From a virus (taxonomy: Duplodnaviria; Caudoviricetes): a stretch of 64,000 nucleotides of DNA. Each line of letters opens with the position of its first letter. Positions within the stretch are counted from its first letter, which is position 1. Both the position numbers and the translations under genes were made by a program. The notes beneath the pieces were generated by a model, which saw only the letters and a program-made list of their open reading frames with translations, made no database searches and was not told the DNA's origin. The stretch spans positions 326 through 64,325 of the IMG/VR virus record IMGVR_UViG_3300042904_000419, one strand, 5' to 3'. Positions 8,057-58,731 of this stretch are shown here, one piece after another.

Positions 8057-8093
8057 CTGAACCAAAGACCGCCTCCCGTTGCCGGGAGGCGGT
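8057..8093 (-). terminator. terminator hairpin, copy 1 of a 37-bp direct repeat
   Basis: ACCGCCTCCCG-N4-CGGGAGGCGGT followed by CTTTGGTT on the minus strand. Confidence 0.75.
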
Positions 8094-8097
8094 AAAG

Positions 8098-8349
8098 TTA
8101 CGCCGGCTCTCCGCATCCGGGACAAGCTTTGGCGCGACGCGAGATCTGCCGGCCACAAGTGCCGCAACTGACGAGCTGGGGCAAGGAACTCTCGCTGATC
8201 GCTGCCGGGCGAAACATGTTGCCCTTGGCCTGGAGCTGCTCGGACATCTCGTTGCGCCACCGCTCTTCGCACCAGCGATCGCTGCACTCCCACTTGAGAA
8301 AGCTATGGCCCTTGATGGGCGAGTGGCAACGGGGACAGTGGTAAGCCAT
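8098..8349 (-). CDS. Cys-rich zinc-ribbon protein
   Basis: CPRC, CSDRWC, CGTCG...AKACPGCG; GGAGG upstream. Confidence 0.65.
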   Translation of the reverse strand: MAYHCPRCHSPIKGHSFLKWECSDRWCEERWRNEMSEQLQAKGNMFRPAAISESSLPQLVSCGTCGRQISRRAKACPGCGEPA

Positions 8350-8440: not shown

Positions 8441-8477
8441 CTGAAACAAAGACCGCCTCCCGGAATCGGGAGGCGGT
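8441..8477 (-). terminator. terminator hairpin, copy 2 of the 37-bp direct repeat
   Basis: Same stem and flank as 8057-8093; differs in the loop and at one flank base. Confidence 0.7.
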
Positions 8478-8682
8478 CAGTGCGTGGGGCAGTGGCAGGC
8501 ACAATAGCACCTCGCGTTTAAGTGAATTCGCGCGAACGGGTATCTTGATCCATGTGATTGGCGCAGAAAATGCAGGGTACCGCCACGGGAACGCGCAACT
8601 GTCCGGGCAGCGACCGGGGGAGCGTGCGACCGACGCGTGCGGTGAACCCTGGATTCTGTTACAATCGGCGCGGAGATGCCCG

Positions 8683-13190: not shown

Positions 13191-14783
13191 ATGCTCCTCC
13201 GTAGCCGCTCCCGCCGCCCCGCTCCCGTCGCCCCGGCCAACCCCTGGTTCCCCTGGGTCGATCCCCTGCCGCAGCGCAGTCCCGATCGCGGCCGCTCCGT
13301 CCTGGCGGTGATCCCCTCCGGCGGCAAGTCCGGGAGGCAGCTCCGCCGCTGCTTGCAGCACCTCCACGCGGCCAGCGAGGGGGTAAGCCTGCGGGTGCTC
13401 GTGGTTCTGTGCCGGGTCACGCCGGGCGCACAGAAACGCGCCCGTGCTGCCTGCGCCGGCCTGGCCGAGCTGGTCGAGCTGGAGGGCGACTACACCTATT
13501 CGCGCTCCCTCAACGCCGGGTGGGCACGGCGCCGTGACGAAGGCTATTTCCTCGCGCTCAACGACGATTGCGACCTCCGGCCGGGGGCACTGGCGGCGCT
13601 CCGCCTGGCCCTCATTGAGGAAGGCTGGACGGCGGCCGGTCCGCACCTGACGACGGACTCCCCCCATTACAAAGCGGTGGTGGTGCCCGCGCGCAGCCGC
13701 CGCAATGAACCCCTTTGGGGCTGCTGCATCCTCTGGGACGCGTGGTGGCTGGAGCGTATCGGCACGCCGGGCAAGCCGTACGACGAGCGGCTGACGGGGT
13801 ACGGGTTCGACGAACCCGAGCTCCTCATTCAGACGTTGCGGCGCGGCGGACGCTGGGGCGTAGAGCCGAAAGCCCACGCCCATCACTATGGCCACCTGTT
13901 CGAGCAGGAGCAGGTGGTCTATGCCTCCCTCCGGTTCCAGGCGAATCTCCATCTGTTCCACGCCCTCCACGGCTGCCACGAATGGGGCGCCTCGCATCAC
14001 TGGCAGCCGCTCCCCGGACTCCTGGTGAGCCTGGCGGGGCACAACGTCGCGGAGTGGGTCGAACGGTGCCTGCGGAGCGTGGAGGCGAGCCTGGCCGGCT
14101 ACCGGTGGGCGCTGGTCTACGCGGACGACGGCAGCACGGACGGCAGCGCGGAGCTGGTGGAGCGGTACCCGCTGAGCTGCGGGATGCGGCTGGTGACGCG
14201 GCATCCGAAAGCCCGCAACGCCGCCCAGGCCAAGAACCGCGCCCTGGCGGACGGGCAGGGGCTCTCCCGCGCCTATCCCGCGCTCCTGCTCATGGATGCC
14301 GATGACGAGATGCTACCGGGGCGCCCGGGGCTGCTCTGGCAGGCGCGAGACGCGGGACACCTGGCGGTGAGCGGGCCGTACGAGGCCGTGCCGCTGAGCG
14401 GAAGCCGCTCCCTCATCCGGCCGACGGCACAACAGCAGTGGAAGGGCGCGCTGGGCCCGTGGGCGACCCTGCTGCACGCTTCATTGGTGCCGGCGGACGG
14501 CTGCCTGTTTCCCGAGGAGCTAGACGCCCACGAGGACGTCGCTCTCTGGCTTCGCTGGTGGCTGAACGGAACCGTGCTGCACCCGCTCCCGGACGGGCCG
14601 CCGGTTCATCGCTACCACCACCGGGCCGGCTCCACGTGCCGCGGGGCCGACGCCGCCGCGCTCTACCGGGCTTACCGGGCCTGGCGGGCGCGCGAGCTGG
14701 GCGTAGCGGAGGCGCTGGGCGTAGCGGAGGCGCTGGCGCCGCTCGATTTCACTCTCCCGCCCCTCGCGGGCCGCGTGGGCTAA
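13191..14783 (+). CDS. two-domain family 2 glycosyltransferase
   Basis: Domain 1: YSRSLNAG, FLALNDD, GYGFDE. Domain 2: DDGSTDGS, AKNRAL, MDADD, HED. Confidence 0.85.
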   Translation: MLLRSRSRRPAPVAPANPWFPWVDPLPQRSPDRGRSVLAVIPSGGKSGRQLRRCLQHLHAASEGVSLRVLVVLCRVTPGAQKRARAACAGLAELVELEGDYTYSRSLNAGWARRRDEGYFLALNDDCDLRPGALAALRLALIEEGWTAAGPHLTTDSPHYKAVVVPARSRRNEPLWGCCILWDAWWLERIGTPGKPYDERLTGYGFDEPELLIQTLRRGGRWGVEPKAHAHHYGHLFEQEQVVYASLRFQANLHLFHALHGCHEWGASHHWQPLPGLLVSLAGHNVAEWVERCLRSVEASLAGYRWALVYADDGSTDGSAELVERYPLSCGMRLVTRHPKARNAAQAKNRALADGQGLSRAYPALLLMDADDEMLPGRPGLLWQARDAGHLAVSGPYEAVPLSGSRSLIRPTAQQQWKGALGPWATLLHASLVPADGCLFPEELDAHEDVALWLRWWLNGTVLHPLPDGPPVHRYHHRAGSTCRGADAAALYRAYRAWRARELGVAEALGVAEALAPLDFTLPPLAGRVG

Positions 14784-31059: not shown

Positions 31060-32619
31060 TCAGCGGTCCGTCCAGTCTGCGTCTTCATCCGGCAGCTCCA
31101 TCTGCGGCTGTTCCGGCTCCGGCGCGTGGCCTTCGAAGTGTCCCGCCGCTGGCTGGTAGATCCGACAACGGCCCAGGCTCCCGTGCAACTTGACCATGCC
31201 CACCGCGCCCTGCCGGTTCTTGGCGATGATGAGCTCTACCAGCCCCTCGCCGTCGTCGCGCTGCCCGGCCTTCTGCCGCGCGTAGTACTGCGGCCGGTGG
31301 ATGAACATCACGGCGTCCGCCACCTGCTCGATCATCCCGCTTCCGCGAAGGTCGGAGAGCATCGGCCGCAGGTCCGCCCCGCCCCGGCGCTCGTTGCTGC
31401 GGGTGAGCTGAGACAGTACCACCAGGGCAATCCCGAGCTTCCGCGCCGTCGCCTGCAGGGACTTCATAATCAGGGTGAGGGCGGCGTTCTCGTTCTCCGC
31501 CTTCGGATCCCAACTGATGATCTGCAGGTAGTCGATCACCAGCATCTCGATCCGCTGCTCCCGCACCAAACGACGGGCGAGCGCGCGGATCTGGCCCGCG
31601 GTGACGTCCGACTCGTCCACGATGTGGAGGGGGTAACCCACTACCCGCTCCACCGCCTGCGCCAGCAGAGATTGCTGGGTCTCCGTGAGCTGGTCCGGCA
31701 ATTCCGGGTTGGCGTGGTTCAGGACGGTGGTGAGCGGCACCCCGTAGCGCACGTCATGGAGCGCGGTATCCGCGCATTGCATCCGGACGCCCACGTCCGC
31801 CCGCGGCATCTCCAAGCTGAGCAGCGCCGCTGGTTTCTTGGTGCGACCAGCGGTCAGGAGGAGCTCTACCGCCAGGGCGCTCTTGCCCATGCTCGGCCGC
31901 CCGGCCACGAGGTAGACCTTGCCGGGCAGGAACCCGCCTTGCATCCGGCGGTCGACCCCGGGGAACCCGGTGCTGACGGCGCGCTCCGGAGCGAGCGCCG
32001 TGGCGCCGTACGTCTCCAGCGTGGCCAGCATCAGGTTCCGCGCGTTGTAGACCGGCACCGCCTGCCGCTGCGTCCCAATGGCGAGCACCACCTCCTCCGC
32101 GCAGTTCAGCAGGTCGTCGGCCTCCAGCTCCTCGTTCCGCGCGAGTTCGTCGATCGTCTGTCCCGCGGTAATCAGCTTGCGGCTGATCGACTTGCGCTTG
32201 ACGATCCGCGCGTAGTGCTCCACGTGCGCCGCGGTGGGCACGCTGTCCGTCAGCGTCAGCAAATAGGCGAGCCCGCCGGCCCCTTCGAGCTGCTCCCGCT
32301 TCGCCAACTCCTCGGAGACCGAGAGGGTATCCACGGGCTGGTCCCGGTCCGCCAGGTAGGTGATGACCTCGTGGAGTTTCCGGTGGGCGTCCAGGTAGAA
32401 GTCTTCCCGCTCCAGCAACTCCACCACGGCATCCGTCGCCGTGCGGCTGATCAGAGCGGCGCCCAGGGCGGCCTGCTCCGCGTCGATGGACTGCGGTGGG
32501 AGCCGGTCAGGGAGCGCCGGGAGCCCCACGGGTGGAGCCTCGTACGGCACCGGCAGGTTTGCGGCCTCCTCGCTGCCGTAGGAGCGGCAGCTACGGGGGT
32601 CGGGGCGGCGCGTAGTCAC
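31060..32619 (-). CDS. dnaB: replicative DNA helicase
   Basis: PPQSIDAEQA.LG, AGRPSMGKS, SLEM, IDYLQ, LSQL.R, LSDLRGSG.IEQ.AD, IIAKNRQG. Confidence 0.95.
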   Translation of the reverse strand: MTTRRPDPRSCRSYGSEEAANLPVPYEAPPVGLPALPDRLPPQSIDAEQAALGAALISRTATDAVVELLEREDFYLDAHRKLHEVITYLADRDQPVDTLSVSEELAKREQLEGAGGLAYLLTLTDSVPTAAHVEHYARIVKRKSISRKLITAGQTIDELARNEELEADDLLNCAEEVVLAIGTQRQAVPVYNARNLMLATLETYGATALAPERAVSTGFPGVDRRMQGGFLPGKVYLVAGRPSMGKSALAVELLLTAGRTKKPAALLSLEMPRADVGVRMQCADTALHDVRYGVPLTTVLNHANPELPDQLTETQQSLLAQAVERVVGYPLHIVDESDVTAGQIRALARRLVREQRIEMLVIDYLQIISWDPKAENENAALTLIMKSLQATARKLGIALVVLSQLTRSNERRGGADLRPMLSDLRGSGMIEQVADAVMFIHRPQYYARQKAGQRDDGEGLVELIIAKNRQGAVGMVKLHGSLGRCRIYQPAAGHFEGHAPEPEQPQMELPDEDADWTDR

Positions 32620-33785
32620 GGGCGACCTCCGGTGCTCGCAGCTCGCAGGGTTTCCCAGCGCCGGCGCAGCGCCTGGCGCATTACGGCCGGCTGTGCTTCC
32701 CACTCCGGGCTGCCGGGGCCCGCCGCCAGTAGCCGGTCGGTCTCACTCACCGCGGCCGGGATGCCCCGACTGACGATCTTCTGCCGGACGGGCGGCGGCG
32801 GGGCTCCGGCCGGGGCGGCGAAGTCGTCGGCCTCGTCCGGCTCGGGGGCAGGGTGGGTTACGGAGGCCGGGGGGGGCGGATTCAGTCGGTCCCGGAGCGT
32901 GTTATAGAACCAGGGCATCGTCCGCGGTCCCTGGGAGCCCTTGGCCGCCCAGCGCCGCTTGGTTTCCTCCGCCGTAGCCAGCAACTCCGCCACGGTGACC
33001 CCGCGGCCCGTCTCGAGGTGGTGCTCCAGTTCGTCTTTCCAGCGCTCGAACCCCTCGCCGTCCAGGAGCCCGCCGTACCAGGCACTGACGGCCTGCTTGC
33101 CGCCCTCGTGGTACAGCTCGGCCGCTCGTTGGCGGTGCGGTGGCATCTTGAGCTGCACCCCTGGCGGAGGTTCCGGGGCGCCAGGGGTCGGGGCAGCGCC
33201 AGCGGGGGAGGAGTTGCCTGCCGGGGCGGCTGGAAGAGACGACGACGACCCCTCGCCGGTCGGTTCTGGGGCGGCCGACTCTCGTACCCCGTACTCGTCA
33301 TCGTCATGGCTCTGGCATGGCTCTGGCTCTGGCAATGGGCGCGCGTGAGGCGGACAACGGCTGCCACTGTCCGCCAACGGCAGCCGTTGTCCGCCGTTGT
33401 CCGCCGTTGTCCGCCGTTGTCCGCCGTTGTCGGACACTTTCGGGCGAATGGGGCCGGTGACGAAGGCGCGCGCGGTGCGGAGGAGTTGCTTGCGGAGCGT
33501 CTCGTCGGCATGCTCGTGCCAATCGTGGACCACCAGGCGGTACTCCTCACTCTCGTCCAGCCAACCACATTCCGTGAGGGCGTCCACCAGGTCGTCCGGG
33601 TCACCTTCCCAGTCGATCCCCATGGCGATCCGGTGGTTGGGCAGCCGGCCCAGATCCCCGCAAGGAGTCTCCCGGGCGCAGAGGTGCCAGAGGCACTCCA
33701 GGAGGCCCACGACCACATAGTCGCGAACGTCCAGCCGGCGCGCGAGTGCGCGGAATTTGCTGTTACCTTGGGTGCCCCGCTTCAT
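32616..33785 (-). CDS. phage replication initiator (replisome organiser)
   Basis: KF..LAR.L...G....LW and L...GWL...HDW.EH motifs; internal iterons; directly upstream of dnaB. Confidence 0.8.
   Translation of the reverse strand: MKRGTQGNSKFRALARRLDVRDYVVVGLLECLWHLCARETPCGDLGRLPNHRIAMGIDWEGDPDDLVDALTECGWLDESEEYRLVVHDWHEHADETLRKQLLRTARAFVTGPIRPKVSDNGGQRRTTADNGGQRLPLADSGSRCPPHARPLPEPEPCQSHDDDEYGVRESAAPEPTGEGSSSSLPAAPAGNSSPAGAAPTPGAPEPPPGVQLKMPPHRQRAAELYHEGGKQAVSAWYGGLLDGEGFERWKDELEHHLETGRGVTVAELLATAEETKRRWAAKGSQGPRTMPWFYNTLRDRLNPPPPASVTHPAPEPDEADDFAAPAGAPPPPVRQKIVSRGIPAAVSETDRLLAAGPGSPEWEAQPAVMRQALRRRWETLRAASTGGRP
33383..33431. repeat. five tandem 10-bp repeats (GCCGTTGTCC), probable origin iterons
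   Basis: Directly visible; inverted copy at ~33352-33361; lies inside the initiator gene as in lambdoid origins. Confidence 0.8.
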
Positions 33786-33789
33786 CGCT

Positions 33790-34032
33790 CTAACCCCGCT
33801 CCCCAACAACCGACCGCGCCAGGCGGTCCTTCTCCACTCGCTCCCACCGCGGCGCATCATCCCCGGCAAATAGCGCCAGGGGCTCGGCCGCCGTCGTGTC
33901 TGCCGGTGCCCCCTGCGGGGCGTGCAGCACCAACACCTCTCCGGTCTCCGTGTGCCGGGCCAGCCCCATCACCCAGACTGTGCGGCCGGTGCCGCGGTGG
34001 CGGTAGTAGCCGGGCTGCAGCTCCTGGCTCAC
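33790..34032 (-). CDS. DUF1653-like protein
   Basis: PGYYRH..G...V.GLARHTETGE.LV. Confidence 0.7.
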   Translation of the reverse strand: MSQELQPGYYRHRGTGRTVWVMGLARHTETGEVLVLHAPQGAPADTTAAEPLALFAGDDAPRWERVEKDRLARSVVGERG

Positions 34033-40075: not shown

Positions 40076-41215
40076 ATGGCCTCGGGACACGTGCGGAAGC
40101 GGACCTCGACCTGGGCCTACGTGCTGGAGCTGCCGAAGGGGCTGGACGGGAAGCGCCGGCAGCAGTGGGTGAGCGGCTTCAAGACGAAGAAGGCAGCGCA
40201 GGCGGCGCTCAACCAGGCCCTGGCGGACCTGGAGAGCGGCGGCTGGTCGGAAGCATCCAAACTCACCGTCGCGGAGTATCTGGCGAAGTGGCTGGCGATC
40301 GTGGCGCCGGGGGTGAAGCCGGCCACCCTTCACGCCTACCGGCGCGAGTGCAGCACCCTGAGCGTCGTGTTCGGGGAGCTCCCCCTCGCGCGGCTCACTA
40401 CCCTCCACCTGCGCGAGTGGTACCCGAAGGCCCTGGCGGCCGGCGTCTCCCACGGGAAGCTCGCCTACACGCAAACGATCCTCTCCATGGCCCTGAAGGC
40501 GGCGGTGCAGATGGACCTGGTGCGGAAGAACGTGGCGTCCGCCGCGCCTCCGCCGAAGCGCCCGCTGTCCGACGAGCCGGAGCCGCCGCCGGCGCTGGCG
40601 CAGGAGGAGGTCCTGCGGATGCTGGCGGCGCTCCCGGAATGGATGCGGATCCTCACCATTGTCACGGTGGCCACCGGTCTTCGCCGCGGGGAAGTGCTGG
40701 CGCTCCGCTGGTCGGACGTGGACCTGGAGCACGGGATGCTGCGCACCCGGCAGAACCTGGTGCCGCTCCCGAATGGGGGGCTGGCGTTCTCCTCGCTCAA
40801 GACGCAGAAGTCCCGCCGGGAAGTGAGCCTCAGCCCGAAGCTGGTAGCGCTCCTGCGTGAGCACCGCGCGGCGCAGTGCCAGGTGCGGGCCCTGCTCGGT
40901 CCGGACTACCAGGAGCATTACGACCTGGTGTTCCCCCGTTCGGACGGCTCGCCGCGGAACCCTAACGTGGTCACCGACACCTGGAGTAACATCCGCCGGA
41001 AGCTCGACCTCCCCTACACCTTCCACGATCTCCGCCACACGCAGGCGACGCTGCTCATGGAGGCCGGGGTCCCGGATAAGGTCGTCAGCGCCCGCCTCGG
41101 GCACGCGAAGACGAAGACCACGCAGGACCTGTACTCCCACGTCCGCCTGGTCTCCCAGAACCAGGCGGCGGCGGCCGTCGAGACCTGGCTGGAAGGGCTG
41201 GACGGGGCGGGTTAA
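40076..41215 (+). CDS. int: tyrosine integrase
   Basis: TGLRRGE, FHDLRH, RLGH, DLYSH; N-terminal arm-binding GFKTKK.A. Confidence 0.95.
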   Translation: MASGHVRKRTSTWAYVLELPKGLDGKRRQQWVSGFKTKKAAQAALNQALADLESGGWSEASKLTVAEYLAKWLAIVAPGVKPATLHAYRRECSTLSVVFGELPLARLTTLHLREWYPKALAAGVSHGKLAYTQTILSMALKAAVQMDLVRKNVASAAPPPKRPLSDEPEPPPALAQEEVLRMLAALPEWMRILTIVTVATGLRRGEVLALRWSDVDLEHGMLRTRQNLVPLPNGGLAFSSLKTQKSRREVSLSPKLVALLREHRAAQCQVRALLGPDYQEHYDLVFPRSDGSPRNPNVVTDTWSNIRRKLDLPYTFHDLRHTQATLLMEAGVPDKVVSARLGHAKTKTTQDLYSHVRLVSQNQAAAAVETWLEGLDGAG

Positions 41216-45006: not shown

Positions 45007-45296
45007 GCCAGCTTTGGCGTGATACGGCCGGAGTGTTTCCGCTCTGGCAGCGGGCGTGCTTCCTGCTTGCGGTGGACGCGATGCGCCGTCGCCGCTGGCG
45101 TCTCCTGTCCTGGCTGGGTTGGCGGCGCGAGGAGCTGGAGTTGATCTCACCAACTGGTGAGCCGCAAGGAGTGAAGACGGTCTGGCTGTTGGCCGTGCGG
45201 AACGGCGAGGGGCTGCTGATCGAGGTCCTTTCCTCGAACGGGCGGCGCACCTGGTATGAGCTGAGCCGCAGTGACCTGAGCGAGGCCACCCCATGA
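45003..45296 (+). CDS. hypothetical protein
   Basis: GTGA overlap, GGAGG SD. Confidence 0.55.
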   Translation: MSQLWRDTAGVFPLWQRACFLLAVDAMRRRRWRLLSWLGWRREELELISPTGEPQGVKTVWLLAVRNGEGLLIEVLSSNGRRTWYELSRSDLSEATP

Positions 45297-45571
45297 GCTG
45301 CTACGTGGACGAGCTCCGCGACTACCGGCAGCGCCACGACCTCCCGCCCCGGATGCGCCGGGAGTGGTGCCACCTGACCGCGGACACCGAAGACGAGCTG
45401 CACGCGTTCGCGGCGCGATTGGGAATGCGCCGGGAGTGGTTTCAGGATCACCCCCGGCCGGAGCGGCGGCACTACGATCTGACGCGGGAGCGGCGAGAGC
45501 GGGCGGTGCGCGCGGGGGCTTTATCCGTTCCGGCGCGTGAACGGCTGAAGGCGGCGAGGGCTAACCCATGA
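45293..45571 (+). CDS. DUF4031 protein
   Basis: YVD, WCHL.ADT..ELHAFA.RLG..R.WFQ, HYDLT..RR..A...GA. Confidence 0.9.
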   Translation: MSCYVDELRDYRQRHDLPPRMRREWCHLTADTEDELHAFAARLGMRREWFQDHPRPERRHYDLTRERRERAVRAGALSVPARERLKAARANP

Positions 45572-45798
45572 CTGCCCCCACCCCCACCCTCGGCGCCCGC
45601 ATCCGGCAGCGCCGCGAGGCCCTGCGGCTCACCCAGGAGCAGCTCGCCACGCGGGCGGGGATCACGCGGCAGTCGCTCTCCCGGATCGAGTGCGGCGGCC
45701 ATGAGGTCTACTGGGATACGGCCTGTAAGCTGGCGGATGCCCTGGGGGTCACCCTGGACGCACTGCGGGATGTCAAATCTACGTTGCAAAGCTCGTAG
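45568..45798 (+). CDS. XRE-family HTH regulator
   Basis: LTQEQLA..AGITRQSLSRIE.G. Confidence 0.9.
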   Translation: MTAPTPTLGARIRQRREALRLTQEQLATRAGITRQSLSRIECGGHEVYWDTACKLADALGVTLDALRDVKSTLQSS

Positions 45799-45858
45799 CG
45801 GATGAGGATTTCTGCGTTAAATAGGCTCAAATACCCGGTGAGGGAGCGACTTACCAGC

Positions 45859-46335
45859 ATGCCAACCGCGACCCATACCGAACGGAAAGCCGCCGAGGAG
45901 CTGCTCACGCAGTACTGCCGGACCGCCCACCTGGGCGAGTTGCAGACGGAGATCGTGCGCCAGCACCTGTGCGCGGGGCGGACGCCGCCGGAACTGCGGG
46001 AGACCTTGCCGACCAAGCCCGGCGCCAAGCCGCTCGGGACGCGCCAGATTCGGGACCTGTTGGATGCCGGACTGCGGCGGGTGTGCGGTCTGCCCGGCGC
46101 GCGCGAGATGCTGCAGCAGACGGTAACCGCAGAGCAGTTCGAGCGGATCACGGACCGGGAGAGCCTCCCGCCGACGGTGGGCGAGTTGATGGACGGCCCA
46201 CGGCGACCAGAGCCCGGCCGGCGCTTTTACGGGCGCGAGTGGACCACCATGTGCTTCCTGCCGGGGCAGGAGACGAAGAAAGGCGAGCGAGGCGTACCGG
46301 TGCGGCTGGTGGAGGAGATCCGCCGCCCCTGGTAA
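45859..46335 (+). CDS. hypothetical protein, possible late transcription regulator
   Basis: Last gene before the late non-coding region; sigma-region-4-like helical pattern is an inference. Confidence 0.5.
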   Translation: MPTATHTERKAAEELLTQYCRTAHLGELQTEIVRQHLCAGRTPPELRETLPTKPGAKPLGTRQIRDLLDAGLRRVCGLPGAREMLQQTVTAEQFERITDRESLPPTVGELMDGPRRPEPGRRFYGREWTTMCFLPGQETKKGERGVPVRLVEEIRRPW

Positions 46336-46339
46336 GACG

Positions 46340-46900
46340 AGCAGGGTTAGTATCCGGCCCGGATCCGGGAGAGGCCGTGAGGCCACATCCGCGATGGCTC
46401 GGTGGTTCTTCGCCTCGATAACACGATTTGCCCGGCAAACGGGCGACAGGGTTCGGGAAACGCGGCCTCGAAAACCGCGCGCTCCTTAGTGCCGCAAGGC
46501 AGCCGCCTCGAAAACGGTAGAGCACCCGAGCAGCATACCCTGCCAGTCACCGGGGATCGGCTCCCGGCCCTACCCGTGCGGGGGCTGCACGGGACCTGAC
46601 GCGGTGGAGCAGTTGGTAGCTCGTCGGCCTCATAAGCCGAAGGTCGGCGGTTCGAGTCCGTCCTGCGTCCCTCCGGTGCGGAACCGGTGTCACGAGCGTG
46701 AGCCATTGACTGGGGCCGGGGAAGCGTTCTCCCCGGCCTCTTCTTTCGTCCGCACCTCGGCGTCACGCTTTACGCAGTCGGGGAGCGATCCCCACTCCGC
46801 GCCCGGACGGGTTCCGGGTAACAGCGGTTTCGCTGTGCCAGTGCTTACTTCAAATCCATGATCCTGGCCCGGAGCCCCCGCTCCGGGCCTTTCTTCATCC
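46340..46900 (+). ncRNA. candidate large structured RNA surrounding tRNA-Met
   Basis: ~560 nt with no credible CDS; nested stems, GCAA tetraloop, two identical CCTCGAAAA loops, closing terminator at 46867-46896. Confidence 0.5.
46598..46670 (+). tRNA. tRNA-Met(CAT), no encoded CCA
   Basis: GACGCGG/CTGCGTC acceptor; GAGC/GCTC D stem; TCGGC-CTCATAA-GCCGA; GGCGG-TTCGAGT-CCGTC. Confidence 0.88.
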
Positions 46901-46924
46901 CGCGCGGTGCGGCGGACCACTTCG

Positions 46925-47206
46925 ATGCAGCTCGAGCTTGGACACCTGATCACCATCGGCTGCTTTCTCTTCGTGCAGAATCTGGCGCTGTGCGTCTTCC
47001 TGTGGAAGGCGGGGGGCTTCGTAGCACGGGTCGAAACCGCGGTGCAGAAGGTCTCCGAGGTCGGACTCCAGACGCAGACCGAGGTGCGGGACACTCGCGC
47101 CGAGCTGCGGGCGCACACCCAGCAGGAAGAGCACCAGTTCCGCGACATGCTCGTCCACCAGACCGTGTTCGACGGCCGCCTCAAGGCCATCGAGGGGCGG
47201 ACCTGA
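46925..47206 (+). CDS. membrane protein with coiled coil (lysis module)
   Basis: N-terminal TM then coiled coil; upstream of the putative endolysin. Confidence 0.6.
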   Translation: MQLELGHLITIGCFLFVQNLALCVFLWKAGGFVARVETAVQKVSEVGLQTQTEVRDTRAELRAHTQQEEHQFRDMLVHQTVFDGRLKAIEGRT

Positions 47207-47460
47207 TGGAGACGCCGCACCCGGCTCGCCGTCGCCGTCGCAAGACCGGTTTCTACCGCGACCGGCACTTCTGGAGCGCGGCGATCGTCGCCCTGCTCCC
47301 CGTGCTGATCAACCACCTGCCGGCCCCCTGGCAGGACCTCGCCATGGAGATTTACGGCGCCCTGGCCGCGGCCGGCATCATCGCGGCGCGCCGCCACAAC
47401 CGGACCGATCTAGGGCTGCGGACGGGGATCTCCTCGACCCAGCCGGAGGACCTGACATGA
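47206..47460 (+). CDS. putative holin
   Basis: Basic N-terminus, R.FW.A motif, two hydrophobic helices. Confidence 0.55.
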   Translation: METPHPARRRRRKTGFYRDRHFWSAAIVALLPVLINHLPAPWQDLAMEIYGALAAAGIIAARRHNRTDLGLRTGISSTQPEDLT

Positions 47461-47873
47461 TTCTGGCACTACTCAAAGCGCTTGGCGTTACCGGCCTCGG
47501 CCAGTTGAAGACCGCCGGCCCGGTTGCACTCAAAGCCGCGCTGCAGTCCGCGCTGGCCCGGGGTCGCGCCGGCATCCTGAAGAAAGCGCTCACGCGGCTC
47601 ACGAAGGACGGCGACGTCGCGAAGCTGACCCAGGACGGGCCGTTCATGGATCGCGACGGGGTCGCCATGACCGGGCGGCAGATGTTCGCCCATCAAGCGC
47701 TGTACGCGATCCCCCGGGCCGCTGGCATCGGCGGTACGCTCACGGACCTGGTGCGCGATGATCACGTGACGGCTTGGGGTCTGGCCGAGGCCGACACGCT
47801 CCTCTCCGGCGTGACGGATGGCAGCGTGGCGTTAAGCCTCGTCTTCGACCGGCTGCTGGAGCAGATCGGATAG
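47457..47873 (+). CDS. hypothetical protein (lysis module)
   Basis: GGAGG SD, ATGA overlap. Confidence 0.65.
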   Translation: MILALLKALGVTGLGQLKTAGPVALKAALQSALARGRAGILKKALTRLTKDGDVAKLTQDGPFMDRDGVAMTGRQMFAHQALYAIPRAAGIGGTLTDLVRDDHVTAWGLAEADTLLSGVTDGSVALSLVFDRLLEQIG

Positions 47874-47877
47874 GCCC

Positions 47878-48453
47878 GTGCTCACGCTTACCAACGCGCG
47901 CATCCGGGAGGCGCTCGCCGCCCTCGGTTACCCCGCACCGGCGCCCGGGCAGCTCCACCTGCTCGGCGTACGGGGCGCGGTCCCGGTGAGCGCGAACGTG
48001 CTTCGCCCCGGCGCGAACCACCTGGACCGCTACGACGACAGCCTCGTCCTGTTCGGGACCACGCTGCACGCCTATCGGGCGACGGTGGACCCGGGGAAGC
48101 GCTATACGGACCAGCCACAGAACGCCGCCGGCTGTGCCCACCTGGTGAACGGCTACTGGCGGTATCAGCGCGGCCTCCACAAGGGGATCCCCGCCCTCAT
48201 ACAGGCAGCTCCGGTGACCGTGCGGCGCGACCGGGATCGGGACGGAGACGACGAGGCCGGTGAGCCGGTAGAGACCGGGATGTTCGGGATCAACCTCCAC
48301 CCGGGCGGGAACGGAGCGCAGCCGGTGGGACCGTGGTCCGCGGGTTGTCAGGTAATCCCGCGCGAGGGGTGGCCGTCCTTCTGGGAGCACGTGCTCGCCA
48401 GTGGGCAGAGGCACTTCGGTTACTGGTTGCTCGACGCGAAGGATTTGAGTTAG
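47878..48453 (+). CDS. putative endolysin, L,D-transpeptidase-like cysteine peptidase
   Basis: LLGVRG, YDD, TVDPG, GINLH.G......WSAGCQV His/Cys motif; follows holin-like genes. Confidence 0.65.
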   Translation: MLTLTNARIREALAALGYPAPAPGQLHLLGVRGAVPVSANVLRPGANHLDRYDDSLVLFGTTLHAYRATVDPGKRYTDQPQNAAGCAHLVNGYWRYQRGLHKGIPALIQAAPVTVRRDRDRDGDDEAGEPVETGMFGINLHPGGNGAQPVGPWSAGCQVIPREGWPSFWEHVLASGQRHFGYWLLDAKDLS

Positions 48454-50062: not shown

Positions 50063-50129
50063 CGCGAAGTAGCTCAACGGTAGAGCGCCGGGCTTCCCGG
50101 TGACCGCGGTTCAACTCCGCGCTTCGCAA
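50063..50129 (+). ncRNA. tRNA-like RNA with anticodon loop reduced to 3 nt
   Basis: C-GCGAAG/CTTCGC-A; GCTC-AACGGTA-GAGC; CCGGG-CTT-CCCGG; CGCGG-TTCAACT-CCGCG. Confidence 0.8.
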
Positions 50130-50205: not shown

Positions 50206-50940
50206 ATGGAACCAGGAACGGTTAACCCCCGCGGCGCCCGCTTCACCGACCAGGAGCTGCGCGAAGACCTCGGCAGCGGGCTCAAGCCGGCGGACATCGC
50301 CCGAAAGTACCAGGTCAGCCCCGCAGCGGTCTCCAAGCGGATCACGAAGCTCAACCTGGCCACCACCACGGCGGCTGTCGCCCCCGAGGAATCCCGCCGG
50401 TTCGTCAGCGGTCAGATCAACGCCATCGAGCAGTTGGAGCGCGGCCTGGGCCGGGTGAACCTGCTGATGGATGCCTGCGACGCGTGGCTGCGGAGTGCAG
50501 ACGATCCGGAGCGCTACGACGTGGGGGCCCGCGCCGAAGAGGTAGACGTCACGTACGAGGTAGAGGTCCGCACCGCGAACGGCTCCCTGGTTACCCAGAA
50601 GCGCACCAAGCGGCTCACAGAGCTGATGGGCTGCCTGGAAGGCGAGGACGAAGACGGCGCCCGGTTCTGCGGCTGGAAGCACGGCGAGACCAAGCGCGCC
50701 GACCCCCGCGAGTTGATCCTCCGCACCGTAGCCGAAGGCCGGCAGACGGTGGCAGCCGCTACGGAGCTCGCGAAGCTCCTGGCAGACATGCGGGCCATGC
50801 AGGAGTGGCGCGAGGTGGTGCTGGGAGCGATCGGGAGAGCGGCGCCGGATGTTCGCGACGAAATCATCGCCGAGGTTCGATCCTCTCTCGTTCTCCGCGG
50901 GCTTCTTGACGGACCCGCGGGCAGCGGTCAGGTGCACTGA
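50206..50940 (+). CDS. terS: terminase small subunit
   Basis: N-terminal HTH (ADIARKYQVSPAAVSKR); overlaps terL. Confidence 0.7.
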   Translation: MEPGTVNPRGARFTDQELREDLGSGLKPADIARKYQVSPAAVSKRITKLNLATTTAAVAPEESRRFVSGQINAIEQLERGLGRVNLLMDACDAWLRSADDPERYDVGARAEEVDVTYEVEVRTANGSLVTQKRTKRLTELMGCLEGEDEDGARFCGWKHGETKRADPRELILRTVAEGRQTVAAATELAKLLADMRAMQEWREVVLGAIGRAAPDVRDEIIAEVRSSLVLRGLLDGPAGSGQVH

Positions 50941-52495
50941 GCAGAAGCTTACCCTGGCGGACCTGCGGATCCGCACCAAGGACAAGCGCATCATCGGGTT
51001 CGCGCCGAACCCGGTGCAGGTGCTCTACCTGGACCAGCTATGTCCGCGCTGGCGGGCCGGCGACTACAAGCTGCAGGCGACGAAGGAGATCATCCTCAAA
51101 GCCCGCCAGTTCGGGTTCTCGACCCTGATCCTGGGCCTTTTCTTCCTGGACACGATCAGCACGCCGAACACGAGCACGGTAGTCATTGCCCATGACGGCG
51201 AGAGCACCGAGCGCCTGTTCCGGATGGTGCATCGCTTCTACCTGAGCCTGCCGGAAACGACCCGACCCCGCACCAAGTTTGCCAACCGCCGCGAATATCT
51301 GTGGCCGGATCTGGACTCCTCGTTCTTCGTGGGGACCGCCGGCGCCAAGGACTTCGGGCGCTCCTCCACGATCAACAACGTGCACATGTCCGAGGTCGGC
51401 ATGTGGAAGAACGGCGAGGAGTTGGTGAGCGGTCTCCTGCAGGCGGTGCCGGCCGGTGGCAACGTCTTCGCAGAGAGTACGGCAAAAGGGCTGGGGAACT
51501 GGTTCCACTCCGAGTACACCGCGGCCGAACGCGGAGATTCCGTCTTCGTTCCGCGTTTCTTCGGCTGGCATCAACACGAGGAGTACCGGAGCGCTCCGGG
51601 GCCGGGTTTCACGCCCACGCCCGACGAAGAGAAGCTAATCGCCGCGTACAGGGTAACGCCGGAGCAGTTGGCCTGGCGTCGTACGAAGATTCTAGAACTC
51701 CGGGACCTGTTCCCCCAGGAATACCCGGCGAACGCCCGCGAGGCGTTCCTGACTTCCGGCAATCCCTACTTCGATCGAGCCAAGCTCAGCGAGCTGTCCG
51801 ACGCACTACACGGCCCGGAGCACCGGCCGCTCAAGCCGGAGATCCCCGTCGCCTATCCACTCCTGCGCCGGGAACCGAAGCTCACGATCTGGAAAGCGCC
51901 AGCACCTGGTCGCCGGTACGTGATCGGGGCGGACACGGCCGAAGGGCTGCCGGACAAGGGCAAAGACGCGGACTTCGACAGCGCAGACGTGTTCGACGCG
52001 GAGACCTGGGAGCAGGTGGCGCGCCTGCATGGCCAGTGGGACACGCACCAGTACGGGCTGCTGCTGGCGGAGCTCGGCACCTGGTATAACCTGGCGCTCC
52101 TCGGCATCGAGCGGAACAACCACGGGCACGCGGTGATCAACGCCGCGATGCATACGGCCGGCTACCCGGTACAGAAGCCGGGGCAGGGCTCCGGGCTCTA
52201 CTGTCACGAGGAGTTCGACGAGAAGAAGACGGTTACGGCACGCCGGCCGGGCTGGCCAACCACGGCGAAGACCAAGTTCTTCGCGCTCGACGGACTGGCC
52301 ACCAGCATCGACGAGGACGCGCTAAAGCTCCACTCCCCGCAGACCGTCTCTGAACTCCTTACCTTCGTGAAGCTTCCGGGCGGCAAGGCGGGCGGCGAAG
52401 GCAAGTGTCACGACGACGCGGTGATGAGCTGTGCGATTGCGGATGCGCTGTTGAAGATGCGGTTGAGCGCGCCACGGAAAATTTGGGCCAAATGA
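50849..52495 (+). CDS. terL: terminase large subunit (start uncertain)
   Basis: ILKARQFGFST Walker A, HMSE, EST..G, IGADTAEG, IERNN.G, HDD.VMS. Confidence 0.93.
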   Translation: MFATKSSPRFDPLSFSAGFLTDPRAAVRCTEQKLTLADLRIRTKDKRIIGFAPNPVQVLYLDQLCPRWRAGDYKLQATKEIILKARQFGFSTLILGLFFLDTISTPNTSTVVIAHDGESTERLFRMVHRFYLSLPETTRPRTKFANRREYLWPDLDSSFFVGTAGAKDFGRSSTINNVHMSEVGMWKNGEELVSGLLQAVPAGGNVFAESTAKGLGNWFHSEYTAAERGDSVFVPRFFGWHQHEEYRSAPGPGFTPTPDEEKLIAAYRVTPEQLAWRRTKILELRDLFPQEYPANAREAFLTSGNPYFDRAKLSELSDALHGPEHRPLKPEIPVAYPLLRREPKLTIWKAPAPGRRYVIGADTAEGLPDKGKDADFDSADVFDAETWEQVARLHGQWDTHQYGLLLAELGTWYNLALLGIERNNHGHAVINAAMHTAGYPVQKPGQGSGLYCHEEFDEKKTVTARRPGWPTTAKTKFFALDGLATSIDEDALKLHSPQTVSELLTFVKLPGGKAGGEGKCHDDAVMSCAIADALLKMRLSAPRKIWAK

Positions 52496-53991
52496 GAGCA
52501 ATCGACGGCGCGCGCGCCTACCTCGCCGCCCGGGGTAATGGGTGGTCGCATGGGGAGGCGCGGGAGACCGCGGAACTGGTGCGGGCCTCCGGCGGCCTGG
52601 TCGCGGTCAAATCCCTGCTCCACAGCGCCGGCGGCTTCTCCGGGAACAATACCGGCTGGCCGAACTCCTTTCGCAAGCTGACGGATAGCTGGCCGGAGCG
52701 CACGGGGCAAAGCGCCTCCGGCGTCTCCCTGGATCAGTTCTGGAGCTGCTCCACCGTCCAGGCGAACCTGAGCTTTATCCAACGGACGTTCCCCGAGGCG
52801 CGCCCCCGGGTGCTGGATGGCGAGGGCGAGGACGCGGAGGAGATCCTGGGGCACCCGCTCACGCGGCTCCTCAACCGGCCGAACCCGTTCTACACGGCAC
52901 ATCGGCTGTGGCAGGTGACGCTGGCCGACTGGTGGGTCACAGGCCGGGGCAATGCCTACTGGCGGATCGTGCGCGGCGGCTATCGGGAACCGGTGGAGCT
53001 CTGGCACCTGCCGGCGGCAGAGGTAGAGCCGGACTGGCCCCGGGATGGTAGCGCGTTCATCTCGCACTACCGCCGCACGGTGAACGGCAAGACGGAGGAG
53101 CTGGACCCGCGTGACGTAGTGCACTTCCGCTTTGGCCAGGACCCACACAACAGCCGCAAAGGCTGGTCGCCGCTCCTGGCGGGGGCGCTGGAGGTGGCGA
53201 ACCTTAACGAGGGCGGGCGGTACCGGGTCGGCCTCCTGGAGCGCCACGGGGTTCCGTCCTACGCCCTGACGCCGCAGAACGAGCAGGTCGCCCAGGGGAT
53301 GGACGAGCCCACCATCGAGCTGCTCCAGCGGCTCTGGCAGGAGAAGCACACCGGCGCGATGCGCGGCGGGCTGTTCGTGCCCAACTTCGCCGCGAAGCTG
53401 GACCGCGTGGGCTACTCCCCGCAGGAGCTCGACATCCGCCAGATGCTCGGCTGGGACGCCGACATGGTGTGCGCCCTCTTCGGGCTCAGCTCCATGGTGC
53501 TGGGCTTGCCCTCCGGCGAGGAGCATCGCACCTTCGCGAACATGGCCGAGGCGCGGGAGAGCGCGTTCGAGAGCAACATCGTCCCCACCCAGGCGCTCAT
53601 GGCGGCGGACCTGGAACTGCAACTCCTTCCGGAGTTCGACTCGGACGAGTCCCATCACGTCGGTTGGGATTACAGCCGGGTGCGGGTGCTGCAGGACGAT
53701 CAGGACAAGCTGTATACGCGGCTGGATCAGGCGGTGACTACCGGCTGGTTGGCGCCGAACGAGGCGCGGAAGAAGGTGAGCCTCCCGGCGCTCAAGGGCG
53801 GCGACGAGCCAAAGCCGCTGTCCGCCGAGGTGCGCGAAGACTACCAGCAAGGGATCATCACCCGCAACGAGGCCCGGAAGCGCCGCGGGCTGCCACCGGT
53901 GAAGGAAGAGGCTGCGGCGCCTGCGGGTGAGCTAGAGGCGGGAACGGAACCCGCGGTGGGCGCAGCAGGTGGCGCACCCGGGGCACGCTGA
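52492..53991 (+). CDS. portal protein (HK97-like)
   Basis: HPL..LL.RPNP, GNAYW, VVHFR, G.SPL, PNEAR. Confidence 0.92.
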   Translation: MRAIDGARAYLAARGNGWSHGEARETAELVRASGGLVAVKSLLHSAGGFSGNNTGWPNSFRKLTDSWPERTGQSASGVSLDQFWSCSTVQANLSFIQRTFPEARPRVLDGEGEDAEEILGHPLTRLLNRPNPFYTAHRLWQVTLADWWVTGRGNAYWRIVRGGYREPVELWHLPAAEVEPDWPRDGSAFISHYRRTVNGKTEELDPRDVVHFRFGQDPHNSRKGWSPLLAGALEVANLNEGGRYRVGLLERHGVPSYALTPQNEQVAQGMDEPTIELLQRLWQEKHTGAMRGGLFVPNFAAKLDRVGYSPQELDIRQMLGWDADMVCALFGLSSMVLGLPSGEEHRTFANMAEARESAFESNIVPTQALMAADLELQLLPEFDSDESHHVGWDYSRVRVLQDDQDKLYTRLDQAVTTGWLAPNEARKKVSLPALKGGDEPKPLSAEVREDYQQGIITRNEARKRRGLPPVKEEAAAPAGELEAGTEPAVGAAGGAPGAR

Positions 53992-58650: not shown

Positions 58651-58731
58651 GACTGCGTAGCCCAATTGGAAGAGGCACGACGACCGAATAGGTACGCCGC
58701 ACCGGCGCAGGTTCGAATCCTGCCGCAGTCC
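58651..58731 (+). ncRNA. class II (Leu/Ser-like) tRNA-like RNA with degenerate anticodon arm
   Basis: GACTGCG/CGCAGTC; GCC-CAATTGGAAGA-GGC; variable arm GCCG-CAC-CGGC; GCAGG-TTCGAAT-CCTGC; only ACC/GGT pairs in the anticodon arm. Confidence 0.78.

What the first reader, a model, noticed from the sequence alone, without database searches (positions are those of the whole stretch)
46340..46900. ~560-nt multi-branched non-coding region with twin CCUCGAAAA loops, an embedded tRNA and crossing helices
Seen: nested stems CAGGGT/ACCCTG, TCGGG/CCCGA and GCTC/GAGC enclose hairpins CGCGG-CCTCGAAAA-CCGCG (46461-46479), TGCC-GCAA-GGCA and GCCG-CCTCGAAAA-CGGT (46502-46518). The identical loops sit on different stems 40 nt apart, with a third CCTCGATAA at 46413-46421. 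After the tRNA, GGTGCGGA (46675-46682) can pair with TCCGCACC (46749-46756) and AGCGTGA (46695-46701) with TCACGCT (46763-46769); these helices cross (pseudoknot or switch). Several more hairpins and a terminator follow. Established: large phage ncRNAs such as GOLLD and ROOL are tRNA-associated. Inference: an undescribed structured RNA at the head of the late operon. The loops contain self-complementary UCGA (possible kissing) or could be protein-binding antitermination sites.
Basis: partly seen in the sequence, partly recalled or inferred. Interest (0 to 1): 0.7.

Follow-up and report, generated by a model that had tools for sequence, protein, structure and literature searches.

The report
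Phage early-late junction with tRNA-Met
This is the non-coding spacer between the regulatory genes and the lysis genes of an uncultured temperate phage, holding an ordinary tRNA-Met gene, two strong transcription stop signals and a thrice-repeated short motif, and nothing shows that it is a large folded RNA.

Summary
The 571-nt stretch 46336-46906 is non-coding.

It holds:
- one elongator-type tRNA-Met;
- two strong + strand intrinsic terminators, T1 at 46712-46740 and T2 at 46866-46889.

T2 ends about 10-27 nt before the first lysis-cassette ORF.

The large structured RNA reading is not supported:
- Rfam gives only the tRNA.
- The parts without terminators fold no better than shuffles, z -1.3 to -1.95.
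- The second "twin" hairpin has a pairing probability of only 0.13.
- No homologue exists for covariation. The one syntenic relative, L004, shares only the tRNA, the terminator layout and a short motif before T2.

What remains is GCCTCGAWAAC three times within 104 nt, found nowhere else in the window.

The orphan gene just upstream models as a sigma-factor region-4-like DNA-binding domain. My best reading is a lambda-like early/late control junction with terminator-gated late genes, with the repeats as the regulator's sites. Whether they act as DNA or as RNA is open. Interest is low to moderate.

The parts
45859..46335 (+). Orphan gene P0004 (158 aa from ATG 45859; the ORF is open from 45802). 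Candidate late-transcription regulator with a sigma-factor region-4-like N-terminal HTH.
   Evidence: GC3 about 0.9. No Pfam or PHROGs family. Only itself among 5.77e9 proteins. One remote homologue, P0005 (36% id, E 1.3e-16). ESM Atlas neighbours are named sigma-like HTH, score 0.92. AF2 model has pLDDT 62. The best VIA-align rows are sigma region 4, Z 6.2-7.0.
46336..46906 (.). Non-coding spacer between the early-right operon and the lysis cassette.
   Evidence: No frame-specific GC3 signal across 46355-46890, with clear signals on both sides.
46412..46422 (+). Motif copy 1, GCCTCGATAAC (one mismatch). Not presented in a hairpin loop.
   Evidence: Flanks read. MFE.
46461..46479 (+). Hairpin 1: 5-bp stem CGCGG/CCGCG with loop CCUCGAAAA. 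It holds motif copy 2, GCCTCGAAAAC at 46465-46475.
   Evidence: Pair probability 0.95-0.99 in the 102-nt element and 0.29-0.35 in the 262-nt context.
46502..46518 (+). Proposed hairpin 2: GCCG/CGGU with loop CCUCGAAAA. It holds motif copy 3, GCCTCGAAAAC at 46505-46515.
   Evidence: Pair probability is only 0.13-0.14 (0.04 in context). The competing fold UGCCG/CGGUA plus AGGC/GCCU has 0.70-0.73.
46447..46542 (+).
   Evidence: Reproduced by RNAfold except for hairpin 2. z -1.26; 22 of 200 shuffles fold at least as well.
46598..46671 (+). tRNA-Met (anticodon CAT), elongator-type cloverleaf with a G1-C72 pair. No encoded CCA.
   Evidence: ARAGORN. Rfam RF00005, 64.8 bits against a gathering score of 29.
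46675..46769 (+). Two crossing perfect helices (8 bp 46675-82/46749-56; 7 bp 46695-701/46763-69). Both enclose terminator T1.
   Evidence: The 104-nt stretch 46672-46775 has z -1.95.
46712..46749 (+). Intrinsic terminator T1: 11-bp stem (9 G-C), 7-nt loop, tail TTCTTTCGT. It starts 40 nt after the tRNA.
   Evidence: The T-rich tail is on the + strand only.
46841..46849 (+). GTGCTTACT, 25 nt before the T2 stem. The same 9-mer lies 26 nt before the equivalent terminator of relative L004.
   Evidence: Only two sequences, so weak.
46866..46896 (+). Intrinsic terminator T2: 10-bp stem (9 G-C), 4-nt loop, tail TTTCTTC.
   Evidence: 46800-46900 has z -4.43. L004 has a terminator of the same size and tail but a different stem sequence.
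46907..47206 (+). First ORF of the lysis cassette: a small protein with a hydrophobic N-terminal segment and a charged C-terminal part. Start is GTG 46907 or ATG 46924.
   Evidence: GC3 0.85-0.95. Translation. Followed by the endolysin-like gene 47878-48453 (phrog_3000/phrog_33083).

Best explanation
The stretch is the control junction of a temperate phage. It lies between the rightward early/regulatory operon (integrase, methylase, Cro/CI-type HTH, orphan P0004) and the lysis, packaging and head genes.

SHOWN
- It is non-coding.
- It carries a normal elongator tRNA-Met gene.
- It carries two strong + strand intrinsic terminators in tandem: T1 40 nt after the tRNA, and T2 ending 10-27 nt before the first late ORF.
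- It carries three direct copies of GCCTCGAWAAC, 83-186 nt upstream of the tRNA.

INFERRED
- No room is left for a promoter between T2 and the first late ORF. RNA polymerase therefore has to cross T2 to express the late genes, and T1 as well if it starts upstream.
- Late expression is thus gated by regulated read-through. This is the logic of lambda Q / pR' / tR', and of Stx phages, which I recall also carry tRNA genes in this leader.
- The tRNA is made from the terminated leader transcript or from the end of the early operon.
- P0004 sits where lambda Q sits and models as a sigma region-4-like HTH. It is the candidate regulator.
- The three repeats end in the AAC that I recall as typical of ECF -35 elements. 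They are its most likely recognition sites, more likely read as double-stranded DNA than as RNA loops. Only one copy is robustly predicted in a loop, and one copy has no stem at all.
For: Gene order: C5 methylase, DUF4031, HTH_31, orphan, then the spacer, then a small membrane protein, endolysin-like phrog_3000, beta-helix protein, terminase, portal. Integrase at 40076-41215.

The spacer is non-coding. The tRNA is confirmed.

T1 and T2 were found by the scan (2 found, 0.8 expected). They are 2 of the 7 hairpins with >=8 pairs and >=7 G-C pairs in window 1-60000.

Relative L004 (terminase 79% identical) keeps the layout although the sequence is not alignable. It has terminator hairpins, a tRNA-Met 4.8 kb before the terminase gene, then a small holin/spanin-like protein and an amidase endolysin. 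It also keeps GTGCTTACT at the same offset before a same-sized terminator with a different stem.

The motif triple is unique to this spot.

P0004 as sigma-4-like: ESM Atlas; Foldseek local hits to sigma-A r4 chimeras, TM 0.47-0.58 by target; the 16 best VIA-align rows are sigma factors or chains of RNAP-promoter complexes, Z 6.2-7.0.

L004 lacks both a P0004 homologue (best tblastn E 3.5) and the motif.

Lambda Q/qut/pR' read-through is described in PMC6266700 (passage seen). N/nut sites lying between promoter and first terminators are described in PMC4496710 (passages seen).
Against: - No promoter was found. The sigma-70 consensus scan gives 0 sites in 45500-47500. The host is unknown, so this says little.
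- P0004 matches no Q, sigma or other family by sequence (Pfam at E <= 10: none).
- The fold match has Z < 8, which the tool warns may be only a common helical arrangement. Foldseek has no hit at E <= 0.001. The model is mediocre (pLDDT 62).
- Terminator-like hits as a class are not enriched in the window: 23 found in 1-60000 against about 24 expected.
- T1 may simply end the early operon and the tRNA, with no regulation.
- Both exact motif copies have complementary flanks with one compensatory G-C/C-G swap. None of 82 chance motif pairs shows this. That speaks for an RNA or hairpin reading over a plain DNA site.
- There are no expression data and no second genome.
Confidence: 0.45

Rival explanations
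1. The two exact motif copies act in the transcript as hairpin loops (CCUCGAAAA on different stems). They would be bound by a phage or host factor that makes RNA polymerase resistant to T1 and T2. This would be a nut-like or put-like processive antitermination signal placed before the first terminators.
For: - Identical 9-nt loops sit on stems of different sequence, with one compensatory pair (G-C vs C-G) and one G-C vs G-U.
- 0 of 82 chance motif pairs have both copies on stems of >=3 bp.
- Twin loops of >=9 nt are expected 0.13 times per shuffled window.
- The position, upstream of two terminators, matches where nut sites lie (PMC4496710, passage).
- There is no terminator between the upstream gene and T1, so the motif is transcribed in any read-through from the early operon.
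Against: - Hairpin 2 has pair probability 0.13-0.14, and 0.04 in context. The favoured fold pairs half of the second motif.
- The third copy has no stem.
- The element folds no better than shuffles (z -1.26).
- The loops are 9 nt, not the 5-nt GNRA-like boxB loop (recalled).
- No arginine-rich N-like protein was identified.
- No homologue is available for covariation.
Confidence: 0.2
2. One reading: the whole ~560 nt, or its halves, is one large, undescribed, multi-branched structured non-coding RNA associated with a tRNA, comparable to GOLLD or ROOL, with a pseudoknot or switch after the tRNA.
For: - Many stems are present.
- The whole 565 nt has z -2.03, with 2 of 100 shuffles as good.
- The 3' half has z -3.88, and more perfect and crossing helices than shuffles: 7 of 1000 and 16 of 1000 shuffles reach the observed counts.
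Against: - Rfam finds only the tRNA at E <= 10.
- The 5' half is at shuffle level on both strands.
- The 3' half scores equally on the minus strand, and its score rests on two terminators.
- The inter-terminator part has z -1.55.
- 6 of 279 ordinary tiles of the same genome hold as many helices.
- The flanks are not conserved in the one syntenic relative.
- A terminator (T1) in the middle would cut the supposed RNA in two.
Confidence: 0.07
3. The tRNA-Met gene is the core of the phage attachment site (attP), and the GCCTCGAWAAC repeats are arm-type sites of the integrase.
For: - The phage encodes a tyrosine integrase with an arm-DNA-binding domain (PF14657).
- Integration into tRNA genes is common (established knowledge, recalled).
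- The repeats are direct and of arm-site length, spaced 53 and 40 bp.
Against: - The integrase gene lies 5.4 kb away.
- The tRNA is complete and well formed rather than a 3' fragment.
- There is no motif copy at <=2 mismatches on the other side of the tRNA. Arm sites normally flank the core on both sides.
- No host genome is available to compare.
Confidence: 0.06
4. Nothing special: a spacer in which a phage tRNA gene with its own terminator was inserted. The repeats and stems would be chance products of G+C-rich sequence, or remnants of local duplication.
For: - Window-wide, the triple arises in 13 of 200 shuffles and twin loops in 11 of 100.
- 8-mer and 7-mer inverted repeats are expected about 0.6 and 2 times in 229 nt.
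- GC-rich 10-mers recurring three times within 400 nt with one mismatch are common here (422 seeds).
- Hairpin 1 is 12 of 15 identical to the tRNA's own anticodon arm, and a stretch 46381-46408 weakly resembles the tRNA's 3' half (25 of 300 shuffles as good). Both fit duplication debris.
Against: - The motif triple and the complementary flanks of both exact copies are independent oddities at one spot.
- The motif occurs nowhere else at <=1 mismatch.
- Two of the strongest terminators of the genome in tandem, directly before the lysis genes, and a matching arrangement in L004, argue for function.
Confidence: 0.2

Closest known systems
Lambdoid late control region (Q antiterminator gene, pR' with qut, short leader RNA, terminator tR', then lysis genes); Stx phages (933W type) carry tRNA genes in this leader (recalled)
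   Same: - A regulator gene lies directly upstream.
- A non-coding leader with strong intrinsic terminator(s) stands directly before the lysis cassette.
- A tRNA gene sits in the leader.
- The late genes follow: lysis, then terminase, then portal.
- Q/qut/read-through is as described in PMC6266700 (passage).
   Different: - P0004 has no sequence match to any Q family. Its model resembles sigma region 4, not a Q fold.
- No promoter or pause signal could be recognised.
- There are two terminators with the tRNA before the first.
- The host is unknown and G+C-rich.
- Membership is not shown; only the layout is alike.
Lambda N / nut (boxA-boxB) and HK022 put RNA antitermination signals
   Same: Short hairpins in the nascent transcript, placed between the start of an operon and its first terminators (PMC4496710, passages). 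Two hairpins lie close together, as in put (recalled).
   Different: - The loops are 9 nt, not the boxB pentaloop (recalled).
- The second hairpin is poorly predicted.
- No ARM protein was found.
- Those signals sit in early operons.
- No sequence or Rfam match.
Small sigma-region-4-like late regulators of phages (proteins annotated 'sigma factor-like HTH DNA-binding protein'; RinA/ArpU-type activators act at this position in Gram-positive phages, recalled)
   Same: A small protein encoded directly before the late operon, with an N-terminal HTH that models like sigma region 4. A short repeated DNA motif lies just downstream of its gene.
   Different: - No Pfam Sigma70_r4, RinA or ArpU hit even at E <= 10.
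- It has an extra conserved C-terminal part of unknown fold, modelled below pLDDT 50.
- Terminators stand between the motif and the late genes, which activator-only systems do not need.
GOLLD, ROOL and other large tRNA-associated phage ncRNAs (Rfam)
   Same: Non-coding, in a phage, next to a tRNA.
   Different: No match to any Rfam model at E <= 10. No conservation. No above-background folding outside the terminators. An internal terminator is present.

Membership tests
tRNA (Rfam RF00005) | Score above the gathering threshold and a cloverleaf with an anticodon | tested here: met
   64.8 bits against 29. ARAGORN gives tRNA-Met(CAT), 74 nt, G1-C72.
Intrinsic (Rho-independent) terminator | G+C-rich hairpin followed by a T-rich tail on the transcribed strand | tested here: met
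   T1 has 11 bp and 9 G-C with tail TTCTTTCG. T2 has 10 bp and 9 G-C with tail TTTCTTCA. Both are on +. Termination itself was not tested.
GOLLD / ROOL / any described large ncRNA | Match to the family covariance model | tested here: not met
   cmscan of 46200-47000 at E <= 10 gave 11 matches. Only the tRNA reaches its gathering score. The next best is 23.3 bits against 53, on the minus strand over T2.
GOLLD / ROOL / any described large ncRNA | Conserved structure with covariation across genomes | tested here: inconclusive
   No alignable homologue was found in viral contigs, metagenome contigs, GTDB genomes or sequencing runs. The flanks in L004 are at shuffle level.
Lambdoid Q / pR' / tR' late control | Intrinsic terminator between the leader start and the first late gene, directly upstream of the lysis genes | tested here: met
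Lambdoid Q / pR' / tR' late control | Regulator belongs to a Q antiterminator family | tested here: not met
   No Pfam or PHROGs family for P0004. The structural neighbours are sigma region 4.
Lambdoid Q / pR' / tR' late control | Constitutive promoter with a Q-binding element and a promoter-proximal pause | not testable with these tools
   Host and promoter type are unknown. The sigma-70 scan found 0 sites.
Lambda N / nut | boxB hairpin with a 5-nt GNRA-like loop, plus boxA, and an arginine-rich N protein | tested here: not met
   The loops are 9 nt. The definition of boxB is recalled. No N-like protein was searched for systematically.
Sigma-70 region 4 / ECF-type HTH (P0004) | Pfam Sigma70_r4 or r4_2 above threshold | tested here: not met
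   No Pfam hit at E <= 10 for P0004 or P0005.
Sigma-70 region 4 / ECF-type HTH (P0004) | Fold of residues ~1-90 superposes on sigma region 4 | tested here: inconclusive
   VIA-align Z 6.2-7.0, rmsd 1.6-5.2 A, 57-78 residues aligned. The 16 best rows are sigma factors or chains of RNAP-promoter complexes, but Z < 8 and the model has pLDDT 62. Foldseek best E is 0.37. The ESM Atlas score is 0.92.
attP with arm-type integrase sites | Repeated arm sites on both sides of the core, next to int | tested here: not met
   The copies lie on one side only. The int gene is 5.4 kb away.

The most novel reading that the evidence does not exclude
The hairpins are functional RNA modules that copy an anticodon arm. 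Read as 4 bp plus a C.A mismatch closing a 7-nt loop, the loop CUCGAAA has C32, U33, A37 and A38 in place. It is 5 of 7 identical to the anticodon loop of the adjacent tRNA-Met. Hairpin 1 is 12 of 15 identical to that tRNA's anticodon arm.

Together with the tRNA they would form a new kind of phage leader RNA. It would either load a terminator-override factor onto RNA polymerase before T1/T2, or act as a decoy or sensor for tRNA-directed host enzymes.

Such mimicry may therefore recur.
Probability: 0.08. Interest if true: 0.7.

Novelty: new member of a known kind. Interest (0 to 1): 0.22.

Why it matters
If the reading holds, this is one more example of terminator-gated late-gene control with a leader tRNA. 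It comes from a G+C-rich, uncultured soil phage lineage far from the coliphages where that logic was worked out. The regulator, an orphan sigma-region-4-like protein, is unlike the known Q proteins.

That would be of modest interest for phage transcription biology and for annotating such junctions. It does not open a new class of RNA.

The repeated motif paired with an orphan regulator is a small, cleanly testable question: is it read as DNA or as RNA?

Tried and rejected
HOMOLOGUE HUNTS THAT FAILED
- P0001/P0004 as query in viral contigs: 39 pattern hits, none confirmed.
- The P0004+P0005 alignment: 37 hits, none confirmed.
- 5.77e9-protein search: only the query itself.
- Strict twin-motif pattern in viral contigs: 2 loci, both coding tandem repeats.
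- Relaxed pattern: 119 stretches or more, 80 fetched, 82 motif pairs. None had both copies on stems of >=3 bp, and ARAGORN found no tRNA in them.
- GTGCTTACT-N-CTGGCCC pattern: 118 stretches or more, 80 fetched. Only L004's own contig is relevant; the rest are unrelated coding sequence.
- Terminase as query: 19 viral loci, 3 GTDB loci, 14 metagenome loci. Only L004 (= L026) has a tRNA at the syntenic place among the 8 loci scanned for tRNAs.
- Phage GenBank records: 66 records, all matching only the tRNA.
- Sequencing runs: 1 run listed, the possible source. No RNA holder was listed, so nothing can be said on expression.

OTHER IDEAS REJECTED
- Decayed tRNA copies in the 5' half: no second tRNA hit at E <= 10. 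The best local alignment to the tRNA was reached by 25 of 300 shuffles.
- Coding potential of the overlapping ORFs (46402-46599, 46604-46861 and the minus-strand ORFs): no GC3 signal.
- Loop complementarity to the tRNA T-loop (6 nt), and to the hairpin at 46821-46836: judged by eye to be within chance, not tested.
- ECF-type -10 elements at a fixed distance after the three motif copies: none shared (read).
- A profile search of solved structures with A2 gave one irrelevant hit (8vd6, E 4.8e-05).
- A 10-mer triple scan proved too noisy to locate an alternative attP.
- Earlier findings by place and by sequence: nothing.
Full report
WHERE THE STRETCH LIES

The window is almost the whole of a 64,325-nt IMG/VR virus record with direct terminal repeats. 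It is G+C-rich, about 65-70% locally.

Gene content shows a temperate tailed phage:
- a tyrosine integrase with an arm-binding domain at 40076-41215, plus DnaB, RecT and two DNA methylases;
- a rightward block ending with DUF4031 (45293-45571), a Cro/CI-type HTH (45568-45798) and an orphan gene (45802 or 45859 to 46335);
- after the stretch in question, a small protein with a hydrophobic N-terminal segment (46907-47206);
- then an endolysin-like protein (47878-48453, phrog_3000/phrog_33083) and a beta-helix protein;
- then large terminase (50849-52495) and portal (52405-53991).

A codon-position G+C plot shows strong third-position signal up to 46335 and again from about 46900. No frame signal lies between them. 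So 46336-46906 is a genuine 571-nt non-coding spacer at the early/late boundary.

CHECK OF THE OBSERVATION

The tRNA is a normal elongator-type tRNA-Met(CAT) at 46598-46671, with Rfam score 64.8 bits.

There are two intrinsic terminators on the + strand, not one:
- T1, 46712-46740: 11 bp, 9 G-C, tail TTCTTTCG.
- T2, 46866-46889: 10 bp, 9 G-C, tail TTTCTTCA.

The scan of window 1-60000 listed 23 terminator-like hits, about what shuffles give. Only 7 of them have >=8 pairs and >=7 G-C pairs, and two of those are T1 and T2.

IS IT A LARGE STRUCTURED RNA?

Rfam finds nothing but the tRNA, even at E <= 10.

Folding energies against dinucleotide shuffles:

| Stretch | z (+ strand) | z (- strand) |
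|---|---|---|
| 262 nt before the tRNA | -1.30 | -0.44 |
| tRNA trailer with T1 | -1.95 | not run |
| Between the terminators | -1.55 | not run |
| All 565 nt | -2.03 | not run |
| 229 nt after the tRNA | -3.88 | -3.51 |
| 46800-46900 (contains T2) | -4.43 | not run |

Only the 229 nt after the tRNA stand out, and they do so equally on the untranscribed strand. The part around T2 alone accounts for much of that.

That 3' half has more perfect helices (7 of >=7 bp) and more crossing pairs (4) than shuffles. Shuffles reach these counts in 7 of 1000 and 16 of 1000 cases. But 6 of 279 ordinary tiles of the same genome hold as many helices. The extra helices also largely reuse the CCCGG/CCGGG words of the hairpins.

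Their 3' arms are transcribed only after T1, so they cannot act as an upstream anti-terminator.

A partition-function calculation shows that the twin-loop picture holds for only one hairpin:
- Hairpin 1 has pair probability 0.95-0.99 in the isolated element and 0.29-0.35 in the 262-nt context.
- Hairpin 2 has only 0.13-0.14, and 0.04 in context.
- A competing fold that pairs half of the second motif has 0.70-0.73.

The third motif copy has no stem.

SEARCH FOR RELATIVES

None gave an alignable homologue.
- The upstream protein is an orphan. It finds only itself among 5.77e9 proteins. An exhaustive HMMER search adds one remote homologue, P0005 (36% identity, E 1.3e-16). P0005 lies on short Logan contigs that I could not fetch.
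- Motif patterns in viral contigs found only coding repeats or chance pairs.
- The terminase found 19 viral, 3 GTDB and 14 metagenome loci.
- Only one of these, L004 (= L026; terminase 79% identical), covers the syntenic place with a tRNA.
- Only the presumed source run holds the sequence.

In L004 the flanks of the tRNA align with the window no better than shuffles do. Covariation therefore cannot be tested.

L004 does keep the architecture:
- terminator hairpins;
- a complete tRNA-Met 4.8 kb before the terminase gene;
- then a small holin/spanin-like protein and an amidase endolysin.

It also shares one short module with the window. GTGCTTACT lies 25 nt (window) or 26 nt (L004) before a 10-bp terminator. 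Both terminators begin CCTGGCCC and end TTTCTT, but the middles of their stems differ. With two sequences this is only a hint that T2 is a conserved, functional signal.

WHAT REMAINS UNEXPLAINED

The repeated motif remains. GCCTCGAAAAC occurs exactly at 46465 and 46505, and with one mismatch (GCCTCGATAAC) at 46412. There is no other copy at <=1 mismatch in the 64 kb.

Such a triple is unique in the real window and appears in 13 of 200 shuffles. Both exact copies have complementary flanks of different sequence. None of 82 chance pairs of the loop motif in other phages has this. Taken together this is unlikely to be chance, but the evidence is not overwhelming.

THE NEIGHBOURING ORPHAN PROTEIN

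P0004 gives a lead on the motif.
- ESM Atlas neighbours are small phage proteins named sigma-factor-like HTH, score 0.92.
- An AlphaFold model from the two-sequence alignment is mediocre: pLDDT 62 overall, 63-81 over residues 11-100.
- Foldseek finds nothing at E <= 0.001, though sigma-A region 4 chimeras are among its best compact hits.
- An exhaustive structural alignment ranks sigma factors, or chains of RNAP-promoter complexes, in the 16 best rows. Z is 6.2-7.0 over model residues about 1-90.
- Z below 8 is inside the tool's caution zone, and Pfam gives no sigma hit at E <= 10. This is a concordant lead, not a membership.

The three motif copies end in AAC. As I recall, that is the hallmark of the -35 elements bound by ECF-type region 4.

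L004 has neither a P0004 homologue nor the motif. It has instead a STAS-domain protein in its early block.

MECHANISM PROPOSED

Shown:
- a non-coding junction;
- a tRNA gene;
- two tandem terminators, the second abutting the first late ORF;
- a motif triple unique to this spot;
- a regulator-like orphan gene directly upstream.

Inferred: T2 ends 10-27 nt before the first late ORF, so late transcripts must cross T2, and T1 as well if they start upstream. Late expression is therefore gated by regulated read-through. This is the logic of lambda Q/pR'/tR', where Q lets polymerase read through the terminator before the late genes (PMC6266700, passage). The tRNA would be produced from the terminated leader or from the end of the early operon.

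P0004 is the candidate regulator, and the repeats are its candidate sites.

I rate the DNA-site reading somewhat above the RNA-loop reading. One copy lacks a stem, one stem is poorly predicted, and the candidate binder looks like a DNA-binding domain. The complementary flanks keep the RNA reading alive. That reading would be a nut- or put-like signal placed before the first terminators, as nut sites are (PMC4496710, passages).

Other readings are less likely but not excluded:
- attP with arm-type sites. The copies lie on one side only and int is 5.4 kb away.
- Plain chance or duplication debris.

VERDICT

The interpretation as a GOLLD/ROOL-like RNA is not supported. The most economical reading is an ordinary kind of phage control region in an unusual lineage, with one small open question: what reads the triple motif, and in which nucleic acid?

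No supplementary files were consulted. The statements about Stx-phage leader tRNAs, boxB loops, put RNA, RinA/ArpU and ECF -35 elements are recalled and were not checked in a call.

Noticed in passing
window 50063-50129 (+): A tRNA-like sequence between the phrog_419 gene and the small-terminase-like gene. Rfam tRNA gives 58.1 bits, but ARAGORN misses it at default settings. Aligned with the tRNA-Met, it has a GGG/CCC anticodon stem and a first-pair mismatch like an initiator tRNA. Its anticodon loop is cut down to about 3 nt. At a relaxed threshold ARAGORN forces a 65-nt tRNA-Lys(ctt) with short arms. It may be a pseudogene, an assembly slip or a tRNA mimic.
   Followed up: partly
window 58651-58731 (+): A second odd tRNA-like element among the head/tail genes. 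Rfam gives 35.2 bits. ARAGORN, only at a relaxed threshold, draws an 81-nt molecule with a mispaired anticodon stem and an undefined anticodon.
   Followed up: partly
window 33390-33440 (- strand), inside gene 32616-33869: Another pair of hairpins with identical 9-nt loops (GACAACGGC), also 40 nt apart, with stems of 5 and 8 bp. It lies in coding sequence and is probably a tandem coding repeat.
   Followed up: no
window 8068-8093 and 8451-8478 (- strand hairpins): Two near-identical strong hairpins (ACCGCCTCCCG...CGGGAGGCGGT; 11-12 bp), 385 nt apart. They have T-rich tails on the minus strand, inside the otherwise + strand structural block, and bracket a small ORF at 8129-8344.
   Followed up: no
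L004 3406-3747 (+): The nearest relative encodes a STAS-domain protein (anti-sigma-factor-antagonist type; PF01740, E 1.4e-15) in its early block. This is a second hint, besides the sigma-4-like P0004, that this phage lineage meddles with sigma-factor control.
   Followed up: no
window 46381-46408 (+): Weak resemblance to positions 29-56 of the adjacent tRNA-Met (anticodon arm to T stem). The local alignment score of 26 was reached by 25 of 300 shuffles. It could be debris of an old partial duplication.
   Followed up: partly
window 14696-14736 (+): A perfect 18-nt tandem duplication inside the gene 13191-14783, seen as a run of exact 11-mer repeats.
   Followed up: no
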